From: Actinomycetes bacterium
GTDB lineage: Bacteria; Actinomycetota; Actinomycetes; Mycobacteriales; SCTD01
NCBI GenBank assembly: GCA_046565705.1
Contig: JBKHYE010000114.1
Coordinates: 2,164-66,163 of the forward strand
Direction of reading: 5' to 3'
DNA length: 64,000 bases
Of the stretch, positions 3,560-24,208 are shown in pieces. Made by a program: the position numbers and the translations under genes. Positions within the stretch are counted from its first letter, which is position 1; each line of letters begins with the position of its first letter. The notes beneath the pieces were generated by a model that was not told the DNA's origin, searched no databases, and saw only the letters and a program-made list of their open reading frames with translations.

Positions 3560-3811
3560 ATGGACTGGCGCCACAGCGCGCTCTGCCGTGACGAGGACCC
3601 GGAGCTGTTCTTCCCCATCGGGACGACCGGTCCGGCTGCTGCCCAGGTCGAGCAGGCCAAGGTCGTCTGCCGCCGCTGCAGCGTCGTCGAGGACTGCCTG
3701 AGCTGGGCGCTCGACACGGGTCAGGAGTCCGGCGTCTGGGGAGGCACCAGCGAGGACGAGCGACGCTCGCTGCGCCGTCGCGCCGTGCGCGCCGGCGCCC
3801 CCTCGGCCTGA
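3560..3811 (+). CDS. whiB1: WhiB-family Fe-S transcription factor, WhiB1/WblE type
   Basis: ATG 3560 with GAGGAG at 3549-3554. MDWRHSALCRDEDPELFFPIGTTGPAAAQVEQAKVVCRRCSVVEDCLSWALDTGQESGVWGGTSEDERRSLRRR is near-identical in pattern to M. tuberculosis WhiB1 (C-X27-C-X2-C-X5-C, then GVWGG). The track ORF 3473..3811 is over-extended. Confidence 0.95.
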   Translation: MDWRHSALCRDEDPELFFPIGTTGPAAAQVEQAKVVCRRCSVVEDCLSWALDTGQESGVWGGTSEDERRSLRRRAVRAGAPSA

Positions 3812-4110: not shown

Positions 4111-5952
4111 ATGCGTCCCCGTCTCCGCGCCCTGCTGGCGCTGTCGGCCCTGGCCGCCGGTGCCGCCGCCGTGCCTTCCGCGTCCGCCGCCGACAGCGTG
4201 TACGAGGTGTCGTACGTCGAGTCGGTCGACGGCGCGCTGGTCCGCGTCGAGGTGATGCGGCCGGTGCTCGACGAGGACGTCCCGGTGATCCTCACCTACT
4301 CGCCGTACAACTCGATCGGCGAGCCGACCCCGGCGGACGACGCCGTCGCGGCCCGGTACGTCCCGATGGGCTACGCCCGCGCCAAGGCCGACGTCATCGG
4401 GACGCGCGGCTCCACCGGCTGCTGGGACTACGGCGGCGCGAAGGAGCAGCAGTCCGGCGCCGACGTCGTGCGCTGGCTCGCCGAGCAGGAGTGGAGCAAC
4501 GGCCGGGTCGGCATGACCGGCGGCTCGTACGACGGCACGACGGCCACCATGGTCGCCGCCCTCGGCGACGAGATCGCCGCCGACAGCAACGGCGGCAAGG
4601 GGCTCGCCGCCATCCACCCGATCGCCGCGATCAGCCGCTGGTACGGCTACGCCTACATGGACGGCGTCCGCTTCCTGGGCAACTCGAGCACCCCGACCGA
4701 CGAGGGCTTCGACACCCCGCTGCTGTTCGACTTCGGGTTCGGCCGCACGGTCGCGCCGGGCGAGTCGGTCGCGCAGACGGCGCCCGCGCGCACCGGCGAG
4801 TGCGGGTCGGTCGAGCACACCGAGCGCGGCTACGACCGCACGCCCGACTACGACGGGTTCTGGCTGGAGCGCGACTACCGCAAGGACGCCGCCGCGATGC
4901 GCGTCCCGGTGCTGCTGTCGCACGGCTGGCAGGACTACAACGTCAAGCAGGAGGAGGCCACGGCGCTGTTCGAGGCGCTGCCGGTCGACGACCCGGCCAC
5001 CGCCGAGATCGAGGGCGTGCCGTTCAAGAAGCTCTGGATGACGCAGGGCACGCACAGCGGTGGCGACGACGGCGCGGGCTACCAGGAGCTGGTCGACGCG
5101 TTCTGGGAGCGCACGCTCAAGGGCGTCGACAGCGGCGTGGAGGACTTCCCCGACGTCGTCACCGTGGGTCGCACCGCGGCCGGCCCGACGACGCCGCAGG
5201 TCGAGCAGAGCTGGCCGCCGGCCGGCACCTCGCCGCTGACCCTGCACCTCGGCCGCTCGTTCGACACCGTGCCGGGCCTGCCGCCGGCGGGCGTCGCGAC
5301 CAGCACCGGCGAGGGCGGCGTGCTGTCGACCGAGCCGCAGGACGACGGCGCGGGCTGGACGCACATCGGCGTGCCGGGTGTCACGGAGGAGGTCGTGCTG
5401 CGCGACCTCACCAACCAGGGCACGAAGGTCGGCGAGCAGCCGGTCCGGTCCCACGGCTACGCGTACCTGTACCACCAGAGCGAGCCGCTGGCCGACGACG
5501 TCCGCATCGCGGGCTCCGCACTGCTCGAGACGACGGTGACTGCGGCCCAGGGCGGCCAGACGCTGACACCGATCCTCACCGAGGTGCTGCCGAACGGCAC
5601 GCAGAAGCTCGTGCAGCGCGGCTTCCTCAACCTCGACTACGCGGGCGGGCTGAGCAAGGCGGACTCGACCGGTGGCGAGAAGACCGCGACCGTCCGGTTC
5701 CTGCCGCAGGACTACACGTTCACCGAGGGCAGCCGCATCAGGCTGGTGCTGATGGGCGCCAACACCGTGTGGGCGGTGCCCGGGTCGGGCGGGCTGCTGT
5801 CCTACGACATGAGCGCCGCGAAGGGCACCCGCCTGGTGCTGCCCGTCGTCGGGGACGGCTCGCCGGTCCTGCCGCAGCCGGCCGCCTCAGCGGCCGAGGC
5901 CGCCGTCGCCGGGCGGGCCGAGCGGAAGGGCCACCCGGGCGCGGGTTCCTGA
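4111..5952 (+). CDS. Secreted CocE/NonD family hydrolase / X-Pro dipeptidyl-peptidase (S15)
   Basis: ATG 4111 after GAGGGA. Signal peptide MRPRLRALLALSALAAGAAAVPSASA-AD. S15 hallmarks: ILTYSPY, nucleophile elbow GMTGGSYDGTT, HGWQDYNV. Confidence 0.85.
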   Translation: MRPRLRALLALSALAAGAAAVPSASAADSVYEVSYVESVDGALVRVEVMRPVLDEDVPVILTYSPYNSIGEPTPADDAVAARYVPMGYARAKADVIGTRGSTGCWDYGGAKEQQSGADVVRWLAEQEWSNGRVGMTGGSYDGTTATMVAALGDEIAADSNGGKGLAAIHPIAAISRWYGYAYMDGVRFLGNSSTPTDEGFDTPLLFDFGFGRTVAPGESVAQTAPARTGECGSVEHTERGYDRTPDYDGFWLERDYRKDAAAMRVPVLLSHGWQDYNVKQEEATALFEALPVDDPATAEIEGVPFKKLWMTQGTHSGGDDGAGYQELVDAFWERTLKGVDSGVEDFPDVVTVGRTAAGPTTPQVEQSWPPAGTSPLTLHLGRSFDTVPGLPPAGVATSTGEGGVLSTEPQDDGAGWTHIGVPGVTEEVVLRDLTNQGTKVGEQPVRSHGYAYLYHQSEPLADDVRIAGSALLETTVTAAQGGQTLTPILTEVLPNGTQKLVQRGFLNLDYAGGLSKADSTGGEKTATVRFLPQDYTFTEGSRIRLVLMGANTVWAVPGSGGLLSYDMSAAKGTRLVLPVVGDGSPVLPQPAASAAEAAVAGRAERKGHPGAGS

Positions 5953-7386
5953 CCCGGTCGGCTCCACCTGCAGCACGCCGCGCAGCTCGCCCTCCACGAG
6001 CGTGCGCACGATCTGCAGGCCCAGCCGGGCCGAGCCGTCGAGGCTGAAGCCGGCCGGCAGGCCGCGCCCGTCGTCGGTGACCGACACGGTCAGCGCGTCG
6101 TCGGAGCGGTCGAACGCGACGTCGACGCAGCCCTGCTCCGTGCCGGCGAAGCCGTGCTCGACGGCGTTCTGGACCAGCTCGGTGAGCACCATCGCGAGCG
6201 CCGTCGCGACGTCGGCGGGCAGCCGGCCGGGCGAGCCGGTGCGGCGCACCCGGACGGTGCTCTCGGGCGCGGCCACCTCGGCGCACATCGCCAGCACCTG
6301 GTCGGCGACGCCGTCGAACGGGACGCTCTCGTCGGCGGCCTGCGAGAGCCGCTCGTGGACGACCGCGATGGCGGCCACCCGGCGCACCGACTCCTCGAGC
6401 GCGGCCCGCGCCTCGGCGGAGTCGAGCCGACGGGCCTGCATCCGCAGCAGCGCGGCGACGGTCTGCAGGTTGTTCTTCACCCGGTGGTGGATCTCGCGGA
6501 TCGTCGCGTCCTTGCCGAGGATCTGCCGCTCGCGGCGGCGCAGCTCGGTGACGTCGCGCACGAGCACCAGCACCCCGCGGGGCTGCCCGGCGGTGGCGAG
6601 CGGCAGCGCGCGCAGCAGCACGGTGGCGCCCTGCGCCTCGACCTCGGACTCGCGCGGCTCCCGGAAGCGCAGCGCGGCAGCGAGCGCGGCCGACCCGCGC
6701 GGCTCGTCCAGCACGCCGGGGGCCGCGGTCAGGCGGGCGATCGTCGTCCCGAGGTGGACGCCGAGCAGGTCCGCGGTGACCCCGAGCCGGCGGAACGCCG
6801 AGATCGCGTTCGGGCTGGCGTAGACGACGTGCCCGGTGCGGTCCAGGCGCAGCAGGCCGTCACCGACACGCGGCGCGTGCTCGGGGTCGGGCCGGCCGTC
6901 GTCCGGCGCACCGGGGAACGGGAAGCTGCCCTCGGCCACCATCTGCAGCAGCTCGCCGGCCGTCGTCAGGTAGGTCAGCTCGAGCTGGCTGGGGATCCGG
7001 GACGCCGCGGGATCGGTCTCCCGCGTGACCACGGCGACGACGCTCTCGCCGCGACGCACCGGCACGGCCTCCATGCGCACCTTGCTGCGGCCGCGCTCGC
7101 CGTCGCGCACGATCGCGCCGGTCGACCAGGCCCGCTCGACGCGGGCGACGTCGGCGCCGGTGGCCTCGCTTCCCACCAGGTCGTCGGGGTGCACGGTCGG
7201 GCCCGTGGTCGGTCGCATGTGCGCCACGGCGAGCCAGCTGCCCTCGCGGGTGCGCACGCGCAGCACGAGGTCGGCGAAGGACAGGTCGGCGATCAGCTGC
7301 CACTCCGCCACGAGGCGGTGCAGCCAGTCGAGGTCGTCCGGGCCGAGGTCGGTGCGGCTGCCTGCGAGGTCGCCCAGGGTCGACAC
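5887..7386 (-). CDS. pdtaS: Sensor histidine kinase PdtaS (GAF/PAS + HisKA_2 + HATPase)
   Basis: N-terminus VSTLGDLAGS...DLDWLHRLVAEWQLIADLSFADLVL matches M. tuberculosis PdtaS from memory. H-box EIHHRVKNNLQTVAALLRMQ. ATPase motifs LVQNAVEHG and DDGRGLP. Its 3' end overlaps the convergent peptidase gene by 66 nt. Confidence 0.9.
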   Translation of the reverse strand: MSTLGDLAGSRTDLGPDDLDWLHRLVAEWQLIADLSFADLVLRVRTREGSWLAVAHMRPTTGPTVHPDDLVGSEATGADVARVERAWSTGAIVRDGERGRSKVRMEAVPVRRGESVVAVVTRETDPAASRIPSQLELTYLTTAGELLQMVAEGSFPFPGAPDDGRPDPEHAPRVGDGLLRLDRTGHVVYASPNAISAFRRLGVTADLLGVHLGTTIARLTAAPGVLDEPRGSAALAAALRFREPRESEVEAQGATVLLRALPLATAGQPRGVLVLVRDVTELRRRERQILGKDATIREIHHRVKNNLQTVAALLRMQARRLDSAEARAALEESVRRVAAIAVVHERLSQAADESVPFDGVADQVLAMCAEVAAPESTVRVRRTGSPGRLPADVATALAMVLTELVQNAVEHGFAGTEQGCVDVAFDRSDDALTVSVTDDGRGLPAGFSLDGSARLGLQIVRTLVEGELRGVLQVEPTGSGTRARVALPLGPPGDGGLGR

Positions 7387-8780: not shown

Positions 8781-9860
8781 CTAGGCGACCAGGCCCAGCC
8801 GGCGCAGCTCGACGGTGAGGTCGTGCGGGCTCGTACTGGCGGCCATCGCGGCCTCGAGCGTGATGACGCCGTCGCGGATGAACGAGACGAGGTGCTGGTC
8901 GAAGGTCTGCATGCCGTAGTAGCCGCCCTCGGAGATCAGCTGCGGGATGCTGCTGGTCTTGTCCGGGTCGGCGATGGCGTCGGCGATGCGGCCGGTGCCG
9001 ACCGCGATCTCCATGACGACGCAGCGCCCCTCGCCGTCGGCGCGCGGCACGAGGCGCTGGCAGATGATGCCCTTGAGGGCGCCGGCGAGCGCCAGGCGCA
9101 CCTGCTTCTGCTCGTGCGGCGGGAAGAAGTCGATGATGCGGTTGATCGTCTCTGCCGCGTCGGTGGTGTGCAGCGTCGACATGACGAAGTGGCCGGTCTC
9201 CGCGGCCGACAGCGCGGCCTTGACCGTCTCGTGGTCGCGCATCTCGCCGACGAGGATGACGTCCGGGTCCTGGCGCATGGCCGCGCGCATCGCGCTGACG
9301 AAGTCCTCGGTGTCGACCCGGACCTCGCGCTGGTTGACCATCGCCAGCTTGTCGAAGTGCAGCACCTCGATCGGGTCCTCGATCGTGACGACGTGCACCT
9401 CCTTGTTGCTGTTGATGTGGTCGATCATCCCGGCGAGGGTGGTCGTCTTGCCGGAGCCGGTCGGGCCGGTGACGAGCACCAGCCCGCGGGGCTCCATGGC
9501 GAGCGAGGAGAGCACGGGCGGCAGGCCGAGGTCGGTCAGCGGGATCGCGCCGACGCTCACGCGCCGGAACACCAGGCCGCAGGAGCCGCGGGAGCGGAAG
9601 GCGTTCACGCGGAACCGGCCGACGCCGGACAGCGAGTAGGCGAAGTCGGCCTCGTTGGTCTTCTCGAAGACCTCGCGCAGGTCCTCGCGGAGCACCTCGC
9701 GCACCATCTGCTCGGTGTCCCCGGCGGTGAGGTCACGGGTCTGCAGCTTGCGCAGCTTGCCGTCGATGCGCACGCGCGGGGGCGACCCGACCTTGCAGTG
9801 CAGGTCGGAACCGCCGGTCTCCACAAGAGCCCGGAGGAAGGGCTCGATCGAGGTCGTCAC
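8781..9860 (-). CDS. pilT: Type IV pilus retraction ATPase PilT family
   Basis: Walker A GPTGSGKTTTLAGMI, Asp box VVTIEDPIE, Walker B DPDVILVGEMRD, His box ETGHFVMSTLHTTDA. Length of 359 aa is typical of PilT. Confidence 0.9.
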   Translation of the reverse strand: MTTSIEPFLRALVETGGSDLHCKVGSPPRVRIDGKLRKLQTRDLTAGDTEQMVREVLREDLREVFEKTNEADFAYSLSGVGRFRVNAFRSRGSCGLVFRRVSVGAIPLTDLGLPPVLSSLAMEPRGLVLVTGPTGSGKTTTLAGMIDHINSNKEVHVVTIEDPIEVLHFDKLAMVNQREVRVDTEDFVSAMRAAMRQDPDVILVGEMRDHETVKAALSAAETGHFVMSTLHTTDAAETINRIIDFFPPHEQKQVRLALAGALKGIICQRLVPRADGEGRCVVMEIAVGTGRIADAIADPDKTSSIPQLISEGGYYGMQTFDQHLVSFIRDGVITLEAAMAASTSPHDLTVELRRLGLVA

Positions 9861-9921
9861 GGGTCCGTCATCGGCGCGGGGAGCCGCGGGCTTGACTGAC
9901 CCGGCCGGGGGATGTGCGGCT

Positions 9922-10073
9922 GCGGCCCAGGTCGAGAGACGCCGGGGGTCGTGGGCCGGTGATCTCTCCTCCCCCGGCCTGTCGCGACAGGAGCCGCCGC
10001 GAGCGCGGCCTGAATCGCGACACGCCGGGGGACGCCGACCGGCGATCTCTCGTGCCCCGGACTGTCGGGACGC
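9922..10073. repeat. 83-bp tandem direct repeat, 2 copies, in the pilT upstream region
   Basis: Unit A 9922-9990 and unit B 10005-10073 align without gaps at a constant offset of 83 nt, with 52/69 identical. Shared blocks are GCGGCC, GCCGGGGG, CCGG-GATCTCTC, CCCCGG and CTGTCG. Confidence 0.8.
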
Positions 10074-10652
10074 TCACGCAGCCGCCTGGGCGGTCGCGGT
10101 CCCGAGCGGCCAGCGAAGCGGGCGATGACGCCGTACCGGCCGCTGCTCGAACCGCACGCCCGGCACGGCCGGGTACCGCGACGCGAGCCAGATGTGCTGG
10201 CGGACCCGGTCGCAGAGCTCCTCGGGCCGGTGGAAGGCCTCGTCCCATCCGTTGCGGGCGACCTCCAGCGCCACCGCCCGCAGCCCCATCTCGCGCTGCT
10301 TCTCCTTCACCAGCGCGTCCTCCGCCCACGCCGGGACGGGCGTCCCCTCGGCCATCCGGTACTTGGCCAGCCCGTCCGCCTCGACGACCGTCCGCTCGCG
10401 GACGAGCACGAAGTCACAGCGGGCCAGCCAGTCGCCGCGCGGCCCCACGACGTCGACCTGGGTGAGCGGGACCGGCAGGCCGCCGCCGGCGAACGCCACG
10501 CGGTCGAGGGACTCGAGCGGCGACTCCGCCCGTTCGTCGGCGAAGGCGACGACCCGAGCCGCTGCCTCGGCGCCGGCCCACCCGGCGCACCGGTGGAGCT
10601 GGTCCTCGAGGTCGGAGCGCGGCACCCCCGCATGCAGCACGGCGTCCGCCAC
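10074..10652 (-). CDS. DUF559-like endonuclease-fold protein, N-terminally short relative to family (possible remnant)
   Basis: ADERAESPLESLDRVAFAGGGLPVPLTQVDVVGPRGDWLARCDFVLVRERTVVEADGLAKY resembles the C-terminal PD-(D/E)XK-like module of actinobacterial AbiEi/DUF559 proteins (memory). The usual N-terminal HTH half is missing. Confidence 0.45.
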   Translation of the reverse strand: MADAVLHAGVPRSDLEDQLHRCAGWAGAEAAARVVAFADERAESPLESLDRVAFAGGGLPVPLTQVDVVGPRGDWLARCDFVLVRERTVVEADGLAKYRMAEGTPVPAWAEDALVKEKQREMGLRAVALEVARNGWDEAFHRPEELCDRVRQHIWLASRYPAVPGVRFEQRPVRRHRPLRWPLGTATAQAAA

Positions 10653-10686
10653 GACGACGGCCTCCCGGAAGGGGCTCGTGCGACGG

Positions 10687-12147
10687 CTACCGCCGCAGTG
10701 ACGCCATCCAGGCCTCGACGTCGTCGGGGTGACGCGGCAGGGCCGCCGAGAGGTTGCGATGCCCGACCGGGTCGTCGGGGCCCGTGATGACGACGTCGTC
10801 CTCGATCCGCACGCCGATGCCCCGCAGGTCCTCGGGCACGGTGAGGTCGTCGGGCTGGAAGTACAGGCCCGGCTCGACCGTGAGCACGTAGCCCTCCTGC
10901 AGCGTGCCGTGCCGATAGTGGTCGTCGCGGGCGTGCGCGCAGTCGTGCACGTCGATCCCGAGCATGTGGCTGACGCCGTGCAGCGTGTACCGCCGGTAGC
11001 GCTGGTCGTCCTCGGCGAGCGCGGCCTCGGCGTCGTCGAGCACGCCGAGTCGCTCGAGCCCGTGGGCCAGGACCCGCATCGCAGCCTTGTGCGGGGCGAG
11101 GAAGTCCGCCCCCGGCCGGCACTCGGCCAGCGCCGCCTCCTGCGCCTGGAGGACGAGCGTGTAGACCTCCCGCTGCCGGGCGGTGAACGTTCCGCTCACG
11201 GGCAGGGTGCGCGTGACGTCGGCGGTGTAGAGCTCGTGCCCCTCGACGCCCATGTCGAGCAGCACCAGGTCGCCGTCGCGGACCGGCCCGTCGTTGTCGG
11301 TCCAGTGCAGCGTGCAGGCGTGCGCCCCGGCGGCGCAGATCGACCCGTAGCCCACGTCGTTGCCCTCGACCCGGGCGCGCAGGCCGAACACCCCCTCGAG
11401 CCACCGCTCGCTGGTCGCGCGCGCGGCGTCGAGGGAGCGCACGACGTCCTCGAAGCCGGTGATGGTCGCGTCGACGGCGGCCTGCAGCTGGGCGATCTCG
11501 TGCTCGTCCTTCACCAGGCGCAGCTCGGACAGGAACGTGGCGAGCTCGCCGTCCTTGTCGGCGTCGGTGACGAACAGCTCCTCGACGCGCGCGTCGTAGC
11601 CGCGGACGACGCGCGCCTCGGTGCCCTTGAGCAGCTCGAGATCCTCGAGGGGACGGGCGTCGATCCCGAGCAGCGCGCTCTGCGCGGCGAGCGACGGGCG
11701 CGGCCCCACCCACAGCTCGCCGTACATGCGGTCGGTGAAGAAGGCCGGCGTCGAGCGGTCCATCGTCGGCGCCTGGTAGAGCGTGGCGGCGCCGTCGGCC
11801 GCGACCACCAGGACGGCGTCCGGCTCGTGGGAGCCGACGAGGTGGGCGAACTCGGTACCGGGCCGGAAGCGGTACTCGGTGTCGTTCGCGCGGGTCTTGT
11901 AGCCGCCGGTCGGCACGACGAGGACCTCGCCGGGGAAGCGCTCGGCCAGCGCAGCGCGGCGCCGGGCGCGGTACGCGGCGCCGGCGTGCGGCGTCGGCAG
12001 CTGCTCGGTGCGCTCGGCCCAGCCCGACGTCATGAACTCCAGCAGCCGCGGCGGCCGGTCGGGGTCGTGCGAGGCGGTGCCGGGCACCGCCTGCTCGGGG
12101 TCGACGGGGGCGGTCTCGCTCAGCTGGTCACGGGGCTGCTCGGCCAT
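10687..12147 (-). CDS. Xaa-Pro aminopeptidase (M24B, aminopeptidase P family)
   Basis: ATG 12147. M24 metal ligand blocks: DLVLLDMGVEGHELYTADVTRT, HGVSHMLGIDVHD, VLTVEPGLYF, GIGVRIEDDVVIT. Confidence 0.9.
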   Translation of the reverse strand: MAEQPRDQLSETAPVDPEQAVPGTASHDPDRPPRLLEFMTSGWAERTEQLPTPHAGAAYRARRRAALAERFPGEVLVVPTGGYKTRANDTEYRFRPGTEFAHLVGSHEPDAVLVVAADGAATLYQAPTMDRSTPAFFTDRMYGELWVGPRPSLAAQSALLGIDARPLEDLELLKGTEARVVRGYDARVEELFVTDADKDGELATFLSELRLVKDEHEIAQLQAAVDATITGFEDVVRSLDAARATSERWLEGVFGLRARVEGNDVGYGSICAAGAHACTLHWTDNDGPVRDGDLVLLDMGVEGHELYTADVTRTLPVSGTFTARQREVYTLVLQAQEAALAECRPGADFLAPHKAAMRVLAHGLERLGVLDDAEAALAEDDQRYRRYTLHGVSHMLGIDVHDCAHARDDHYRHGTLQEGYVLTVEPGLYFQPDDLTVPEDLRGIGVRIEDDVVITGPDDPVGHRNLSAALPRHPDDVEAWMASLRR

Positions 12148-21749: not shown

Positions 21750-22778
21750 GTGCCCCGCGAGCTGGACGAGGACGACGTCCGGGTCCGCCCGGGCCGGCGG
21801 TCGCGCCCGCGCACCCGCCAGCGCCCCGCGCACGAGGACGCGGCGCCCGCCGAGGTCGTCACCGTCGACCGCGGCCGGTACCGGCTGCGCACGGCCGACG
21901 GCCACCTCGCGACGGCGGTCCGGGCGCGCGAGCTCGGCCGGCGCGCCGTGGTGGTCGGCGACCGGGTCGACGCCGTCGGCGACCTGTCCGGCTCGGCCGA
22001 CGCGCTGGCTCGCATCGTCCGGGTGCACGAGCGGTCGACGCTGCTGCGGCGCACGCCCGACGACACCGACCCCGTCGAGCGGCCGGTCGTGGCGAACGCC
22101 GAGCTGCTCGTCGTCGTCACGGCGCTCGCCGACCCGCCGCCCCGACCACGGCTGATCGACCGCTGCCTCGTCGCCGCCTACGACGGCGGGCTGACGCCGC
22201 TGCTGTGCCTGACCAAGAGCGACCTCGCCGATCCCGACGAGCTGCTCGCCTCGTACGCGCCGCTCGGCGTCGACGCCGTCGTGATCGGCAGGCACGACGG
22301 CGCGCTGACCGGCGTCGACGCGCTGCGCGAGCGGCTGCGCGACCGCACGAGCGTGCTGTTCGGGCAGTCGGGCGTCGGCAAGTCGACGCTGGTCAACGCG
22401 CTGGTGCCGGAGGCCGACCGGGCCGTCGGCGACGTCACCGGCATGGGCAAGGGCCGGCACACGTCGTCGTCAGCGGTGTCGTTCGCGCTCCCCGGCGGCG
22501 GGACGGTCGTCGACACCCCGGGCGTGCGCTCGTTCGGCCTCGGCGCCGTGACGCCGGAGCGCGTGCTGTCGGCGTTCCCCGACCTCGCCGCTGCCGCCGA
22601 GCGGTGCCTGCCCGGCTGTCGCCACTCCGCCGGGGAGCCGCACTGCGGGCTCGACGACGAGGTCGCGGCCGGCCGGGCCGCCCCTCCGCGGCTCGACTCG
22701 CTGCGGCGGCTGCTCGCCGCCCTCTCCGGCGACGACCCCGACGAGCCTCAGCCGGCCGAGCGGGTCCGGCTGACGTAG
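21750..22778 (+). CDS. rsgA: Ribosome small-subunit-dependent GTPase A
   Basis: GTG 21750, 2 nt after the aroA stop. Circularly permuted GTPase: LTKSDL (G4), GQSGVGKSTLVNAL (G1), DTPG (G3). Zn motif CLPGCRHSAGEPHC. The aroA-rsgA order matches Rv3227-Rv3228. Confidence 0.9.
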   Translation: MPRELDEDDVRVRPGRRSRPRTRQRPAHEDAAPAEVVTVDRGRYRLRTADGHLATAVRARELGRRAVVVGDRVDAVGDLSGSADALARIVRVHERSTLLRRTPDDTDPVERPVVANAELLVVVTALADPPPRPRLIDRCLVAAYDGGLTPLLCLTKSDLADPDELLASYAPLGVDAVVIGRHDGALTGVDALRERLRDRTSVLFGQSGVGKSTLVNALVPEADRAVGDVTGMGKGRHTSSSAVSFALPGGGTVVDTPGVRSFGLGAVTPERVLSAFPDLAAAAERCLPGCRHSAGEPHCGLDDEVAAGRAAPPRLDSLRRLLAALSGDDPDEPQPAERVRLT

Positions 22779-23881
22779 GCGGCGACGCCGCCGGCGGCCA
22801 GCAGCACCAGCAGGCCGAGCGCCGCGAGCAGCCCGACCGACCCGCCGTCGTCGTCGGCCGAGACCGGCGACGCGAGCTCGACGTCGTCGGTGTCCGTCGC
22901 CTCCGTGTCGTCGGCGCGGTCGTCGGCGCTGTCGCCCGTGCCGTCGTCGGCGAACGGCAGCGAGGCGGGGGTCGGCTGCGTCGCGGCGGGCTGCGCCGGC
23001 GCCGCGAGCGGCTGCCCCGTCCCCCGCGCCGGTGCCGGGTCGGCCGGCTGCTCGGCGGGCTCGGCCACGACCGGAGCGGCCGGCTGCTGCGCCGGCTGCG
23101 CGGCCGGCTGCGTGACCGGCTGGGCGGCCGGCTGCGTGACCGGCTTGGTGACCGGCGGGTCGGGCTTGGGCTCGGGCGTCAGCGCCACGGCCGCGGTGCC
23201 CTTGTGGATGCGCATCGCGGAGCCGGCGCCCTCACCCTGGTAGGCGAGCGCCGCGAGCTCGTAGGTGCCGTCGACCTCGGGCGCGTAGCCGATCTCGACC
23301 ACCACGTCCGCGGCGGACTCCCCCGGCGGCAGGGGCTGCTCCGACGAGCAGCTGAAGTCCTCCAGCACGCAGCTCCAGCCGTCGGCCGGCTGCACGGAGA
23401 CGACGACGAGGCCGTCGGGCAGCTCGAGCGTCAAGCGGATCTCGGCCGCCGCGCCCGTGTCGGTGTTCGCGACGCCGAGCGTCCACGTGCCGGTGCCGCC
23501 GCCGGTGCCCGTGGCGGGGCCGGTGAGCGTGACCGACAGGTCGCGCGGAGCCGGGGCGTCGGGGTCGACGTTCTCCTTCGGCGTGGGGTCCCCGCCCGGC
23601 GCGGGGTCGGTGGGCGGCTGCTGGCCTCCCGGGGTCTGCGGGCCACCGGCCGGGCCACCGGCCGGGCCACCGGACGTCTGCGGCGGCGTGCCGTTCGCGG
23701 TGCCCGTCGCGTCGAGGGCCGCCTGCGCGGCGGGTGCACCCGGCGCGGCGGGCTCGGCGCTCGCCGGACCGGCGAGCAGCGCGACCGGGACGGACACGAG
23801 CAGGGCGGTGAGGCCGGCGGCGGCCGCCCCACGGGTCAGCGCGCGCCGGGACGGCGCGGCGAGGAGGTCCATCGGGGGCAT
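22748..23881 (-). CDS. Secreted Pro/Ala/Gln-rich surface protein with C-terminal TM anchor
   Basis: N-terminal signal (SRRALTRGAAAAGLTALLVSVPVALLAGPASA-EP). Central beta-rich domain (LSVTLTGPATGTGGGTGTWTLGVANTDTGAAAEIRLTLELPDGLVVVSV). PVTQPAAQ repeats, an acidic tract, and a C-terminal TM segment plus a basic tail (VGLLAALGLLVLLAAGGVAAYVSRTRSAG). Confidence 0.75.
   Translation of the reverse strand: MPPMDLLAAPSRRALTRGAAAAGLTALLVSVPVALLAGPASAEPAAPGAPAAQAALDATGTANGTPPQTSGGPAGGPAGGPQTPGGQQPPTDPAPGGDPTPKENVDPDAPAPRDLSVTLTGPATGTGGGTGTWTLGVANTDTGAAAEIRLTLELPDGLVVVSVQPADGWSCVLEDFSCSSEQPLPPGESAADVVVEIGYAPEVDGTYELAALAYQGEGAGSAMRIHKGTAAVALTPEPKPDPPVTKPVTQPAAQPVTQPAAQPAQQPAAPVVAEPAEQPADPAPARGTGQPLAAPAQPAATQPTPASLPFADDGTGDSADDRADDTEATDTDDVELASPVSADDDGGSVGLLAALGLLVLLAAGGVAAYVSRTRSAG
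23077..23148. repeat. In-frame 24-nt tandem repeat (3 copies) inside the surface-protein gene
   Basis: CGGCCGGCTGCGTGACCGGCTGGG (23101-23124) and CGGCCGGCTGCGTGACCGGCTTGG (23125-23148) differ at 1 nt. 23077-23100 is a 17/24 diverged copy. Together they encode the PVTQPAAQ-type repeats. Confidence 0.85.
23641..23673. repeat. In-frame 12-nt tandem repeat (2.75 copies) inside the surface-protein gene
   Basis: GGCCACCGGCCG x2 plus GGCCACCGG. It encodes GGPAGGPAGGP on the minus strand. Confidence 0.85.
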
Positions 23882-24208
23882 GTCGGTCGGTCCGTCCGGT
23901 TCGGGCGCCCCTGGGGGAGGGCGGCGCTCGGGCCGGACAGGTCGGTCTCGCCACTGGCTCCCCGGACGGCCTAGGCGACCGTCTTCCCGGCCCGCGGGCC
24001 GGTGACCGTCCGGATCGACGCCCCCTGTCCACGCGGCCGGGCGGGCTGCCCGGTCGCGGTCAGGTGCGCTCCGTCCACCGGGTGGCGGAGCGGTGCGCAG
24101 TGCCGAGTGTCTTCCTGCACCGGCGTCGCGTCAACACCTAGAGTGACTGCACATCTACGCAACGCACAGTCTGACCATTCGTATGAGTCACAGTAGTACT
24201 CCTGGGCC

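What the first reader, a model, noticed from the sequence alone, without database searches (positions are those of the whole stretch)
9922..10073. Ungapped 83-bp tandem duplication with conserved hairpin potential in the pilT leader/promoter region
The 213-bp spacer upstream of pilT contains two adjacent units that align at a constant 83-nt offset with no indels. The core 9922-9990 versus 10005-10073 has 52/69 identical positions. Each unit keeps a CCGGGG(G)...(C)CCCCGG pair separated by 22-23 nt (9942-9977 and 10025-10060) around a conserved GATCTCTC block. The proximal unit also holds a perfect 14-bp palindrome, CCTGTCGCGACAGG (9978-9991). Tandem structured units upstream of a single gene resemble tandem riboswitch or aptamer arrangements, or duplicated operator modules. 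I could not match it to any riboswitch class I know.
Basis: seen in the sequence. Interest (0 to 1): 0.55.

Follow-up and report, generated by a model that had tools for sequence, protein, structure and literature searches.

The report
Orphan binding-site repeats beside pilT
The two adjacent 83-bp units in front of pilT are real, but they are four inverted, binding-site-like repeats that arrived with a neighbouring, now truncated, AbiEi-like DNA-binding/nuclease gene; they are not a riboswitch or a conserved control element of pilT.

Summary
9922-9990 and 10005-10073 match at 52/69 positions with a fixed 83-nt offset, which no shuffle reached (0 of 2000). The two units are really four ~20-bp half-sites (consensus GTCGCGACAgnCCGGGGGA) in alternating orientation. 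The pilT-leader or riboswitch reading fails. There is no Rfam match. The element is absent from 83 other pilT loci, including the closest ones (92-93% PilT identity), where the upstream spacer is only 45-80 nt. Only the 52 nt next to pilT are conserved. The array belongs instead to the gene upstream, ORF 10074-10652, a 5'-truncated member of an actinobacterial AbiEi_4/DUF559 family. A related MAG (L088, ~90% nt identity, same gene order) keeps the full-length gene with the same array on both flanks. The window has lost 633 bp relative to it: the upstream array and the DNA-binding domain. A homologue in another genomic context (L089) has the same two-unit array. More distant homologues carry lineage-specific inverted-repeat arrays next to the gene, about 10-fold above background. 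The modelled protein resembles the AbiEi and Rv2827c repressors plus a Vsr-like nuclease. Rv2827c binds two tandem pairs of 23-bp inverted repeats. Best reading: a cognate protein-binding (operator-type) array, probably vestigial here. Binding was not tested.

The parts
10054..10071 (.). Half-site h1, the first after the stop codon of the AbiEi-like ORF. Gene-sense sequence TCCCGACAGTCCGGGG.
   Evidence: 16/18 identical to L088
10014..10031 (.). Half-site h2, inverted relative to h1. Plus-strand sequence ATCGCGACACGCCGGGGG.
   Evidence: 15/18 identical to L088
9971..9988 (.). Half-site h3. With h2 it forms the best-paired arms (94% complementary, 27-nt gap). Its inner end carries the 14-bp palindrome 9978-9991.
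   Evidence: (I2)
9931..9948 (.). Half-site h4, the most degenerate one. Plus-strand sequence GTCGAGAGACGCCGGGGG.
   Evidence: 14/18 identical to L088
10005..10073 (.).
   Evidence: nhmmer E 2.5e-14
9922..9990 (.).
   Evidence: nhmmer E 5.3e-14
9989..10013 (.). Inter-unit linker L'. It is hypervariable: 9/25 identical to L088.
9861..9912 (-). Native pilT-proximal upstream region (GGTCAAG ... GCGCCGA ... GTG). It is conserved in pilT relatives that lack the array.
   Evidence: alignment with L081-L083; 48/52 identical to L088
10074..10652 (-). 5'-truncated AbiEi_4/DUF559-family ORF (192 aa). It keeps only the C-terminal Vsr-like nuclease-fold part. Homology to the L088 gene runs up to about 10682.
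   Evidence: GC3 frame; 100% = P0121; homologues carry PF13338/PF04480
10673..10686 (.). Deletion junction. Relative to L088, 633 bp are missing here: the upstream repeat array and about 460 nt of 5' coding sequence, including the wHTH.
8781..9860 (-). pilT (359 aa, T2SSE ATPase). It is the downstream neighbour, not the owner of the array.
10687..12147 (-). Aminopeptidase P (M24), the gene upstream of the cassette. In relatives it abuts pilT directly.

Best explanation
The '83-bp tandem duplication' is an array of four ~20-bp half-sites (consensus GTCGCGACAgnCCGGGGGA) arranged -> <- -> <-. It forms the 3' flank of a small inserted cassette that encodes an AbiEi-like winged-helix protein fused to a Vsr/DUF559-like nuclease-fold domain.

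The array most likely works at the DNA level, as the cognate binding-site (operator-type) array of that protein. The model is the AbiEi-family repressors, which bind pairs of 23-bp inverted repeats.

In this genome a 633-bp deletion removed the upstream copy of the array, the promoter region and the DNA-binding half of the gene. The array in front of pilT is therefore probably an orphan relic, unless a paralogue elsewhere in the genome still binds it. It reached pilT by insertion of the cassette between the M24 peptidase gene and pilT.

Shown: the architecture, the linkage to the cassette, the absence from other pilT loci, the deletion and the protein fold. Inferred: that the protein binds these sites, and what that binding does (autoregulation, looping or cleavage).
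For: 1. Linkage to the cassette, not to pilT.
- L088 (same M24-gene-pilT order, ~89-90% nt identity) has the full-length gene (349 aa, AbiEi_4 at 29.8 bits). It has the same two-unit array downstream, in a spacer that is also 213 nt, and 1.5 units upstream.
- L089 (69% protein identity, thioredoxin/GlnR context) has two units with an 85-nt period.
- L084, L085 and L087 have related half-sites after the gene, and L084 has them on both sides.

2. Absence from pilT loci.
- The element is absent from 83 pilT loci.
- Only 9861-9912 is conserved upstream of pilT.

3. Family-wide pattern.
- A long inverted repeat lies in the upstream zone of 29/71 homologue loci and in the downstream zone of 15/75. 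Background expectation is 0.037 and 0.026 per zone.
- Arm sequences are lineage-specific but shared by all copies within a locus.

4. Features that hairpins do not explain.
- L092 has four direct copies at a 31-nt period, with no inverted partners for three of them.
- Solo arrays in L092 and L093, at a syntenic site 3.3-3.5 kb away, track each lineage's own arm sequence.
- Units are 70-75% alike within a genome but only 52-61% alike between the window/L088 and L089, although the layout is shared.
- Mismatches are not G.U-biased on the sense strand: 8 G.T, 18 A.C and 65 other.

5. The protein.
- The AlphaFold model of homologue P0123 has pLDDT 88. Its best PDB matches are AbiEi 6y8q (E 7.7e-5) and Rv2827c 1zel (E 1.5e-3), then the I-Bth0305I catalytic domain and Vsr.
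- The acidic and Lys residues of the nuclease-like motif are invariant.

6. Precedent.
- The Rv2827c promoter has four 23-bp inverted repeats arranged as two tandem pairs, shown by EMSA to bind the protein (PMC7319586).
Against: - No binding experiment exists for this family.
- In the window's own sub-clade the array is consistently downstream of the gene (window, L088, L089, L084, L085, L087). It is upstream only in L088 and L084. That is not where an autoregulatory operator is expected.
- Half-site identity between the window and L088 is 60/72 (83%). This is only modestly above the ~75% expected at neutral sites for dS ~0.30, so this pair gives weak evidence for purifying selection.
- Dyad symmetry is kept through changes on both arms (covariation 0.202 versus 0.100, reached by 1/500 shuffles). 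That fits hairpin function as well as dimeric binding.
- The spacer folds better than shuffles as RNA on the gene-sense strand (z -2.9).
- The cognate wHTH is deleted in this genome, so no function here can be asserted.
Confidence: 0.6

Rival explanations
1. RNA-level or single-strand hairpins of the REP/BIME type. The alternating arms fold into stable stem-loops in the M24-ORF-pilT transcript. They would act as 3' stabilisers, U-less terminators or insulators between the cassette gene and pilT.
For: - The gene-sense strand folds to -119.9 kcal/mol, z -2.9, and 0/200 shuffles fold as well.
- Arm complementarity is maintained with changes on both sides.
- The position directly after a stop codon, inside a co-directional gene string, is typical of REP/BIME elements (my own knowledge).
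Against: - There is no U-tract terminator consensus.
- There is no sense-strand G.U bias, and most mismatches are C.C or G.G.
- Direct-repeat arrays without partners exist in L092.
- All copies in a genome share one sequence rather than just complementarity.
- No other copy was found in the 64-kb window or in 1.35 Mb of related loci away from AbiEi-like genes, except the L092/L093 solo arrays.
- In distant homologues the arrays lie upstream of the gene.
Confidence: 0.17
2. Ends or recognition sites of a selfish cassette. On this view the HTH-nuclease is a homing-endonuclease-like or transposase-like enzyme, and the arrays flanking its gene are its cleavage or recombination sites. The window would hold a decayed copy.
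For: - Arrays occur on both flanks in L084, L086, L088, L090, L092-L095, L097 and L098.
- The cassette is present in the M24-pilT slot in the window and L088 but absent in L081-L083. The empty site in L082 carries no array.
- The C-terminal domain resembles the Vsr-like homing endonuclease I-Bth0305I.
- The putative catalytic residues are invariant.
- Solo arrays exist.
Against: - Most homologues sit in one conserved chromosomal neighbourhood (GlnR/LmeA/thioredoxin). That points to vertical inheritance.
- No homologues were found on plasmids or phages.
- No target-site duplication is visible at the cassette borders.
- Only one transposition-like event is documented.
Confidence: 0.15
3. Tandem riboswitch or structured leader that controls pilT.
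For: - There are two similar structured units upstream of a single gene.
- RNA folding is better than in shuffles.
Against: - Rfam gives nothing near threshold: best 24.1 bits against a gathering score of 49.
- The element is absent upstream of every other pilT examined, including same-order relatives.
- The same element occurs in front of an unrelated gene (thioredoxin-like) in L089, and upstream of the AbiEi-like gene in L088.
- The one riboswitch hit above threshold in the window lies elsewhere, at 23931-24034.
Confidence: 0.02
4. A recent, neutral slippage duplication of one terminator-like hairpin, with no function.
For: - There are only two copies, adjacent and ungapped.
- The flanking linkers evolve fast.
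Against: - The two-unit layout with an 83-85-nt period is shared by L088 (dS ~0.30) and L089 (69% protein identity).
- The units are already 25% diverged from each other.
- The same units recur upstream of the gene in L088.
Confidence: 0.04

Closest known systems
AbiEi / Rv2827c (MenA-type) antitoxin operators: inverted-repeat pairs bound by an AbiEi-family wHTH (Hampton 2018, cited from memory; Beck 2020, PMC7319586)
   Same: - Multiple ~20-23-bp inverted repeats. Rv2827c has four of them as two tandem pairs, which is the layout seen here.
- The neighbouring gene's product has an AbiEi_4 Pfam domain, and its model matches 6y8q and 1zel best.
- Site sequences are specific to each protein lineage.
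   Different: - Gaps are longer: 22-23 nt within a pair and 25 nt between pairs, against 13 and 4 bp in Rv2827c.
- The array lies downstream of the gene, and on both sides in relatives, rather than only in the promoter.
- The protein carries a Vsr/DUF559-like nuclease-fold C-terminus instead of the antitoxin domain.
- There is no DUF1814 toxin gene next door.
- Binding is untested.
REP / BIME elements with RAYT genes (enterobacteria, pseudomonads)
   Same: - Imperfect palindromes in alternating orientation, placed after stop codons inside gene strings.
- In relatives the gene is flanked by them on both sides, as RAYT genes are flanked by REPs.
   Different: - Copy number appears low: one locus in 64 kb and no unlinked copies in 1.35 Mb of related loci, apart from two syntenic solo arrays.
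- The associated protein is not a Y1 (IS200/IS605-like) transposase.
MIRU-type mycobacterial intergenic tandem repeats
   Same: - Tandem units of 40-100 bp in an intercistronic spacer of an actinobacterium.
   Different: - The units are internally palindromic.
- Copy number is fixed at two across three genomes.
- No dispersed family was detected.
- Sequence was not compared with MIRU consensus sequences.
Tandem riboswitches (e.g. glycine, tandem c-di-GMP or TPP aptamers)
   Same: - Two similar structured units upstream of one gene.
   Different: - No Rfam match and no conservation with the downstream gene.
- The symmetry is that of simple long hairpins, without multi-helix junctions.
- The same element occurs in front of unrelated genes.
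I-Bth0305I-type Vsr-like homing endonucleases
   Same: - The C-terminal domain of the cassette protein matches its catalytic domain (prob 1.00, TM-target 0.71).
- A site-specific DNA-binding module is fused to a Vsr-like nuclease fold.
   Different: - No intron, intein or phage context.
- The gene is mostly vertically inherited in a fixed neighbourhood.
- Cleavage is untested.

Membership tests
AbiEi-family operator (inverted repeats bound by the adjacent AbiEi-like wHTH protein) | The adjacent gene encodes an AbiEi-family winged-helix protein | tested here: met
   PF13338 AbiEi_4 scores above its cutoff in the full-length orthologue L088 (29.8 bits), in P0123 (38.8) and in L092 (36.2). The Foldseek top hits are 6y8q and 1zel. 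In the window itself this domain is deleted.
AbiEi-family operator (inverted repeats bound by the adjacent AbiEi-like wHTH protein) | Two or more ~23-bp inverted repeats arranged in pairs | tested here: met
   There are four ~20-bp half-sites in the order -> <- -> <-, with centre spacings of 40, 43 and 40 nt. The same layout is seen in L088 and L089. For comparison, Rv2827c has IR1-IR4.
AbiEi-family operator (inverted repeats bound by the adjacent AbiEi-like wHTH protein) | The repeats overlap the promoter of the regulator's own operon | tested here: inconclusive
   Arrays lie upstream of the gene in L088, L084 and 29/71 family loci. The array in the window lies downstream of the gene. No promoter consensus was detectable, and no transcription start data exist.
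AbiEi-family operator (inverted repeats bound by the adjacent AbiEi-like wHTH protein) | The protein binds the repeats specifically (EMSA or footprint) and represses transcription | not testable with these tools
   This needs purified protein. The only indirect support is the co-variation of arm sequence with protein lineage.
Type IV AbiE toxin-antitoxin system | A DUF1814 (AbiEii) nucleotidyltransferase toxin gene is adjacent | tested here: not met
   The neighbours are the M24 peptidase gene and pilT in the window and L088, and LmeA or thioredoxin genes in L084-L087. The protein's own C-terminus has a Vsr/DUF559-like fold.
Riboswitch / cis-regulatory leader RNA of pilT | Match to a curated RNA family, or a conserved multi-helix aptamer | tested here: not met
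   Rfam 15 in E-value mode gave a best score of 24.1 bits against a gathering score of 49, to unrelated families. Gathering-mode scans of 13 related loci and of the whole window gave nothing at this element.
Riboswitch / cis-regulatory leader RNA of pilT | Conserved upstream of orthologues of the regulated gene | tested here: not met
   The element is absent from 80 metagenomic pilT loci and from L081-L083. It is present in front of a thioredoxin-like gene in L089.
Riboswitch / cis-regulatory leader RNA of pilT | Covariation that specifically supports RNA pairing | tested here: inconclusive
   Arm symmetry is kept through changes on both sides (score 0.202 versus 0.100, reached by 1/500 shuffles; only 7 units). 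Wobble mismatches are not enriched on the sense strand: 8 G.T against 18 A.C, out of 91.
REP/BIME (RAYT-associated) repeats | High-copy dispersal in extragenic regions | tested here: not met
   There is no second copy in the 64-kb window. The nhmmer unit profile finds only cassette-adjacent copies in 1.35 Mb. The whole source genome could not be scanned.
REP/BIME (RAYT-associated) repeats | Associated Y1 transposase (RAYT) | tested here: not met
   The associated protein is AbiEi-like plus Vsr-like.
MIRU-like VNTR | Variable copy number of direct tandem units at many loci | tested here: not met
   There are two units in the window, in L088 and in L089. No dispersed loci were found. No comparison with MIRU consensus sequences was made.
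Intrinsic terminator | G+C-rich stem followed by a U-tract | tested here: not met
   No terminator-like site was found in 9600-10800 on either strand. The sequences after the arms lack T runs.

The most novel reading that the evidence does not exclude
The AbiEi_4/DUF559 proteins of Actinobacteria are a large family without characterised function. They may be site-specific HTH-nucleases whose genes are bracketed by arrays of their own recognition sites, with extra solo arrays elsewhere in the genome. That would be a previously undescribed protein/repeat partnership: either a self-targeting, looping autoregulatory nuclease, or a domesticated homing or transposition module. The window would show one copy that jumped between the M24 peptidase gene and pilT and then decayed.
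Probability: 0.2. Interest if true: 0.65.

Novelty: new variant of a known kind. Interest (0 to 1): 0.35.

Why it matters
For pilT the finding matters little. The element is not a conserved regulator of twitching motility, and it should not be used to seed a new riboswitch class.

The wider pattern has more value. A widespread, uncharacterised actinobacterial family (annotated AbiEi antitoxin-domain or DUF559) combines an AbiEi/Rv2827c-like DNA-binding module with a Vsr-like nuclease fold. Its members carry lineage-specific inverted-repeat arrays next to the gene, often on both flanks. No paper in the searched library describes this.

This gives a directly testable protein-DNA pairing: predicted sites are in hand for dozens of homologues. 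It also extends the multi-inverted-repeat operator logic known from AbiEi and Rv2827c to a non-toxin-antitoxin context.

Finally, it is a practical warning. Long palindromic tandem units in high-G+C intergenic DNA can be cargo of a neighbouring gene rather than a leader of the gene downstream.

Tried and rejected
- **Rfam.** I scanned the spacer on both strands in E-value mode, and 13 related loci plus the whole window in gathering mode. Nothing was found at the element.
- **Other copies in the window.** blastn-short and motif searches found none. A 20-nt match at 3633-3652 looks like chance and was not pursued.
- **Similarity in 80 metagenomic pilT loci.** None was found. The closest relatives were therefore fetched one by one.
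- **Exact-protein look-ups.** Look-ups of the window's PilT and of P0121 failed because the source contig is not on record.
- **Pfam and NCBIfam on the truncated ORF alone.** These gave nothing. The family identity came from homologues.
- **Terminator and sigma-70 consensus scans.** None was found.
- **phmmer of the L088 protein against PDB sequences.** No hit. Only fold comparison found AbiEi and Rv2827c.
- **Plasmid and phage searches with P0123.** No hit, which weakens the mobile-element reading.
- **Solo array after GlnR.** I looked for one in L090, L091 and L089 and found none. The solo arrays are therefore limited to L092 and L093.
- **attC, dif/Xer and ANTAR two-hairpin targets.** I considered these from memory and rejected them, because the motif, arm length or loop size does not fit.

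Full report
**1. The observation**

The window has 75.5% G+C. On the minus strand the gene order is as follows:
- an M24 aminopeptidase P gene (10687-12147);
- a 192-aa ORF (10074-10652);
- a 213-nt spacer (9861-10073);
- pilT (8781-9860, 359 aa, T2SSE).

The pilT start is supported by about 100 homologues of exactly 359 aa.

The repeat is as described: 9922-9990 versus 10005-10073 gives 52/69 identities at offset 83 with no indels.

The match is far beyond chance. The best ungapped 69-nt self-match in 2000 dinucleotide-preserving shuffles of the spacer averaged 34.5 (sd 1.6, maximum 42). None of 634 other 213-nt windows of this sequence reached 52.

**2. Anatomy**

Each unit is an imperfect inverted repeat. 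The array is therefore four half-sites in alternating orientation, at 9931-9948, 9971-9988, 10014-10031 and 10054-10071.
- The consensus from 15 sites in three genomes is GTCGCGACAgnCCGGGGGA.
- Centre-to-centre spacings are 40, 43 and 40 nt.
- The best-matched arms are not within a unit but between units: 9970-9987 with 10015-10032, 94% complementary with a 27-nt gap (I2).
- A GAGAGATC box (gene-sense) follows each '->' site.

**3. It is not a pilT element**

- An Rfam 15 search of 9700-10300 on both strands, in permissive mode, gave only chance-level matches (best 24.1 bits against a gathering score of 49).
- None of 80 pilT loci from metagenomes has any similarity to the spacer.
- The three closest PilT relatives fetched (92-93% identity; L081, L082, L083) have the same M24-pilT neighbourhood. 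Their spacer is either 45 nt (L082), or holds a 70-aa biotinyl-domain gene followed by about 80 nt (L081, L083). None has the repeat or the 192-aa ORF.
- Aligning these with the window shows that only the ~52 nt next to the pilT start (9861-9912) are conserved.
- A profile of the unit searched over all 168 sequences held (1.35 Mb) finds it only in the window, L088 and L089, with weak echoes in L084 and L085.

**4. It belongs to the gene upstream**

Third-position G+C shows that the minus-strand ORF 10074-10652 is the real reading frame. The ORF is 100% identical to a hypothetical protein of an 'Actinomycetes bacterium' MAG (P0121). Its homologues are about 300-330 aa and carry PF13338 (AbiEi_4) and/or PF04480 (DUF559). 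The window's ORF lacks roughly the first 130-150 residues.

A scan of GTDB genomes found L088, a Mycobacteriales MAG.
- It is collinear with the window at ~89-90% nucleotide identity: M24, then the gene, then a spacer that is also 213 nt, then pilT.
- Its gene is full-length (349 aa, AbiEi_4 domain present).
- It has the same two-unit array downstream (period 83).
- It has a further one and a half units upstream, directly after the M24 stop codon.
- Its upstream array is 79% identical to window 10050-9936.

Relative to L088 the window lacks 633 bp (L088 1077-1709). The missing stretch comprises the upstream array, the putative promoter region and the 5' 460 nt of the gene.

L089 has 69% protein identity and lies in a different neighbourhood (GlnR, then the gene, then a thioredoxin-like gene). 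It carries two units with an 85-nt period that overlap its stop codon. L084, L085 and L087 share L089's neighbourhood and have related half-sites after the gene. In L084 a ~70-nt palindrome with 23-nt identical arms lies on both sides of the gene.

**5. Family-wide pattern**

I wrote a simple inverted-repeat finder (stem of at least 17, at most 15% mismatches, loop 8-45). Among the 80 homologue loci it gave:
- an inverted repeat in the 420-nt zone around the gene start in 29 of 71 loci with a complete zone, against a background expectation of 0.037 per zone;
- an inverted repeat in the 300-nt zone after the stop in 15 of 75, against 0.026.

Arm sequences differ between lineages but are shared by all copies within a locus. 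The outer ends resemble GGGA(A/G)G throughout.

Typical layouts are '<- <- spacer -> ->' with 29-31-nt periods upstream of the gene (L101, L106, L111, L120, L122). The clade at 42-50% identity to the window ORF has arrays on both flanks (L090, L092-L095, L097, L098).

L092 has one '<-' site and then four direct '->' copies at a 31-nt period after the gene. L092 and L093 each have a solo array 3.3-3.5 kb away, after GlnR, with no AbiEi-like gene beside it. Each solo array matches its own lineage's arm sequence.

**6. DNA sites or RNA hairpins?**

Evidence for DNA-level recognition by a sequence-specific factor:
- Direct-repeat arrays cannot all pair.
- All copies in a genome keep one consensus. 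Units are 70-75% alike within a genome and 75% between the window and L088, but only 52-61% between those two and L089, even though the two-unit layout is shared. This indicates concerted, lineage-specific evolution.
- Of 91 mismatches in 35 inverted repeats of the family, 8 are G.T (sense-strand wobble), 18 are A.C and 65 are neither.
- There is no terminator consensus.

Evidence that does not discriminate, or that favours hairpins:
- Arm symmetry is kept through changes on both sides (covariation score 0.202 against 0.100, reached by 1/500 shuffles, 7 units).
- The spacer folds better than shuffles on the gene-sense strand (z -2.9).

Comparison of the window with L088:

| Region | Identity |
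|---|---|
| Half-sites | 83% (60/72) |
| GAGAGATC spacers | 73% |
| Linkers | 44% (19/43) |
| pilT-proximal region | 92% (48/52) |

With dS ~0.30, neutral identity would be ~75%. The half-sites are thus only slightly better conserved than neutral. The linkers diverge faster than neutral, which suggests turnover by recombination or slippage.

**7. The protein**

An AlphaFold2 model of P0123 was built from a 50-sequence alignment (pLDDT 88.1, pTM 0.82). P0123 is 329 aa and 66% identical to the window ORF over the shared part. The Foldseek matches in the PDB were:
- best, S. agalactiae AbiEi (6y8q, E 7.7e-5);
- then M. tuberculosis Rv2827c (1zel, E 1.5e-3);
- then, for the C-terminal part, the catalytic domain of the Vsr-like homing endonuclease I-Bth0305I (3r3p, TM-target 0.71), Vsr itself (1cw0, 1vsr) and a DUF559 protein (3hrl).

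The D...ExDG..K-type residues are invariant in 7- and 50-sequence alignments.

Beck et al. 2020 (PMC7319586) report the following, each site shown by EMSA:
- AbiEi binds two 23-bp inverted repeats.
- Rv2827c binds four 23-bp inverted repeats arranged as two tandem pairs, with a 13-bp gap within a pair and a 4-bp gap between pairs.

The array in the window has the same logic, with 22-23-nt and 25-nt gaps.

**8. Most likely mechanism**

- **Shown.** The array is part of an AbiEi-like/Vsr-like gene cassette that sits between M24 and pilT only in the window/L088 lineage. The window's copy has lost its upstream array and its DNA-binding domain.
- **Inferred.** The half-sites are the cognate binding sites of the cassette protein's winged helix. 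Occupancy would serve autoregulation, possibly by looping between the flanking arrays, or would guide the nuclease domain.
- **In this genome.** The array is probably a relic. The truncated ORF shows dN/dS 0.137 against L088. That fits either a recent deletion or a still-useful C-terminal domain.
- **Effect on pilT.** Transcripts reading from M24 into pilT must cross the array. A side effect on pilT expression through roadblock or RNA hairpins cannot be excluded, but it is not a conserved feature of pilT.

**9. Rivals**

- A REP/BIME-like RNA role.
- Selfish-cassette ends.
- A pilT riboswitch.
- A neutral recent duplication.

These are weighed in the dedicated fields. The mobile-element version has some support: arrays on both flanks, insertion polymorphism at this slot, and an empty site without an array in L082. 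It is weakened by three results. Most homologues keep a conserved GlnR/LmeA neighbourhood. No plasmid or phage homologues were found. No target duplication is visible.

**10. Novelty**

Full-text searches for DUF559, AbiEi, AbiEi_4 and PF13338 found the AbiEi and Rv2827c operator work. They found nothing on this fusion family or its flanking arrays. I therefore class the element as a new variant of a known kind: an AbiEi-type multi-inverted-repeat binding array.

Interest is modest for this window, because the array is an orphan relic and not a pilT regulator. Interest is moderate for the family-level pattern.

Noticed in passing
window 23931-24034 (- strand): A c-di-GMP-II-GAG riboswitch aptamer (RF03169, 58.5 bits against a gathering score of 40, E 5e-9). 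It lies just upstream of minus-strand ORF 22748-23881 (377 aa, weak DUF11/DUF1775 hits). It is the only Rfam family at or above its gathering score in the window, and it is unrelated to pilT.
   Followed up: partly
window 23076-23163: A tandem repeat with 12/24/36-nt periods (TRF score up to 110) inside overlapping ORFs 22205-23974 (+) and 22748-23881 (-). It is the second-best self-match in the window (49/69). It probably encodes a peptide repeat in the riboswitch-controlled gene.
   Followed up: partly
window 9861-9912: A 52-nt pilT-proximal region (GGTCAAG ... GCGCCGA ... GTG). It is conserved across pilT relatives with otherwise unrelated upstream sequence, and is 48/52 identical to L088. 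It is a candidate for the native pilT promoter or translation-initiation region.
   Followed up: partly
L092 5198-5330 and L093 5582-5650: Solo '<- <- spacer -> ->' arrays after the GlnR gene, with no AbiEi-like gene beside them. Each matches its own lineage's half-site. The array is absent at the same place in L090. These may be extra targets of the protein, or remnants of one.
   Followed up: partly
L088 1198-1207; L084 2773-2782; L085 ~76-86; L092 655-690: A conserved CTGTGGAC-like box lies between the upstream array and the start of the AbiEi-like gene in several homologue loci. It may be a promoter element.
   Followed up: no
L081 5161-5373 and L083 5710-5922: In two of the closest pilT relatives, the M24-pilT slot holds a 70-aa biotinyl/lipoyl-domain gene instead of the AbiEi-like cassette. 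In L082 the slot is empty. The slot therefore varies between relatives.
   Followed up: no
L090 396-473 (- strand): A c-di-GMP-I riboswitch aptamer (RF01051, 52.1 bits against a gathering score of 35) in a related Mycobacteriales MAG locus.
   Followed up: no
window 3633-3652: A 20-nt, 95% match to the left edge of unit A (blastn-short E 9e-4). It is probably chance in 75% G+C DNA.
   Followed up: no
window 5887-7386 (- strand): A PdtaS-type GAF-PAS histidine kinase lies about 1.4 kb downstream of pilT. I considered ANTAR (PdtaR) two-hairpin targets for the repeat and rejected them, because the stems and loops are far too long.
   Followed up: partly
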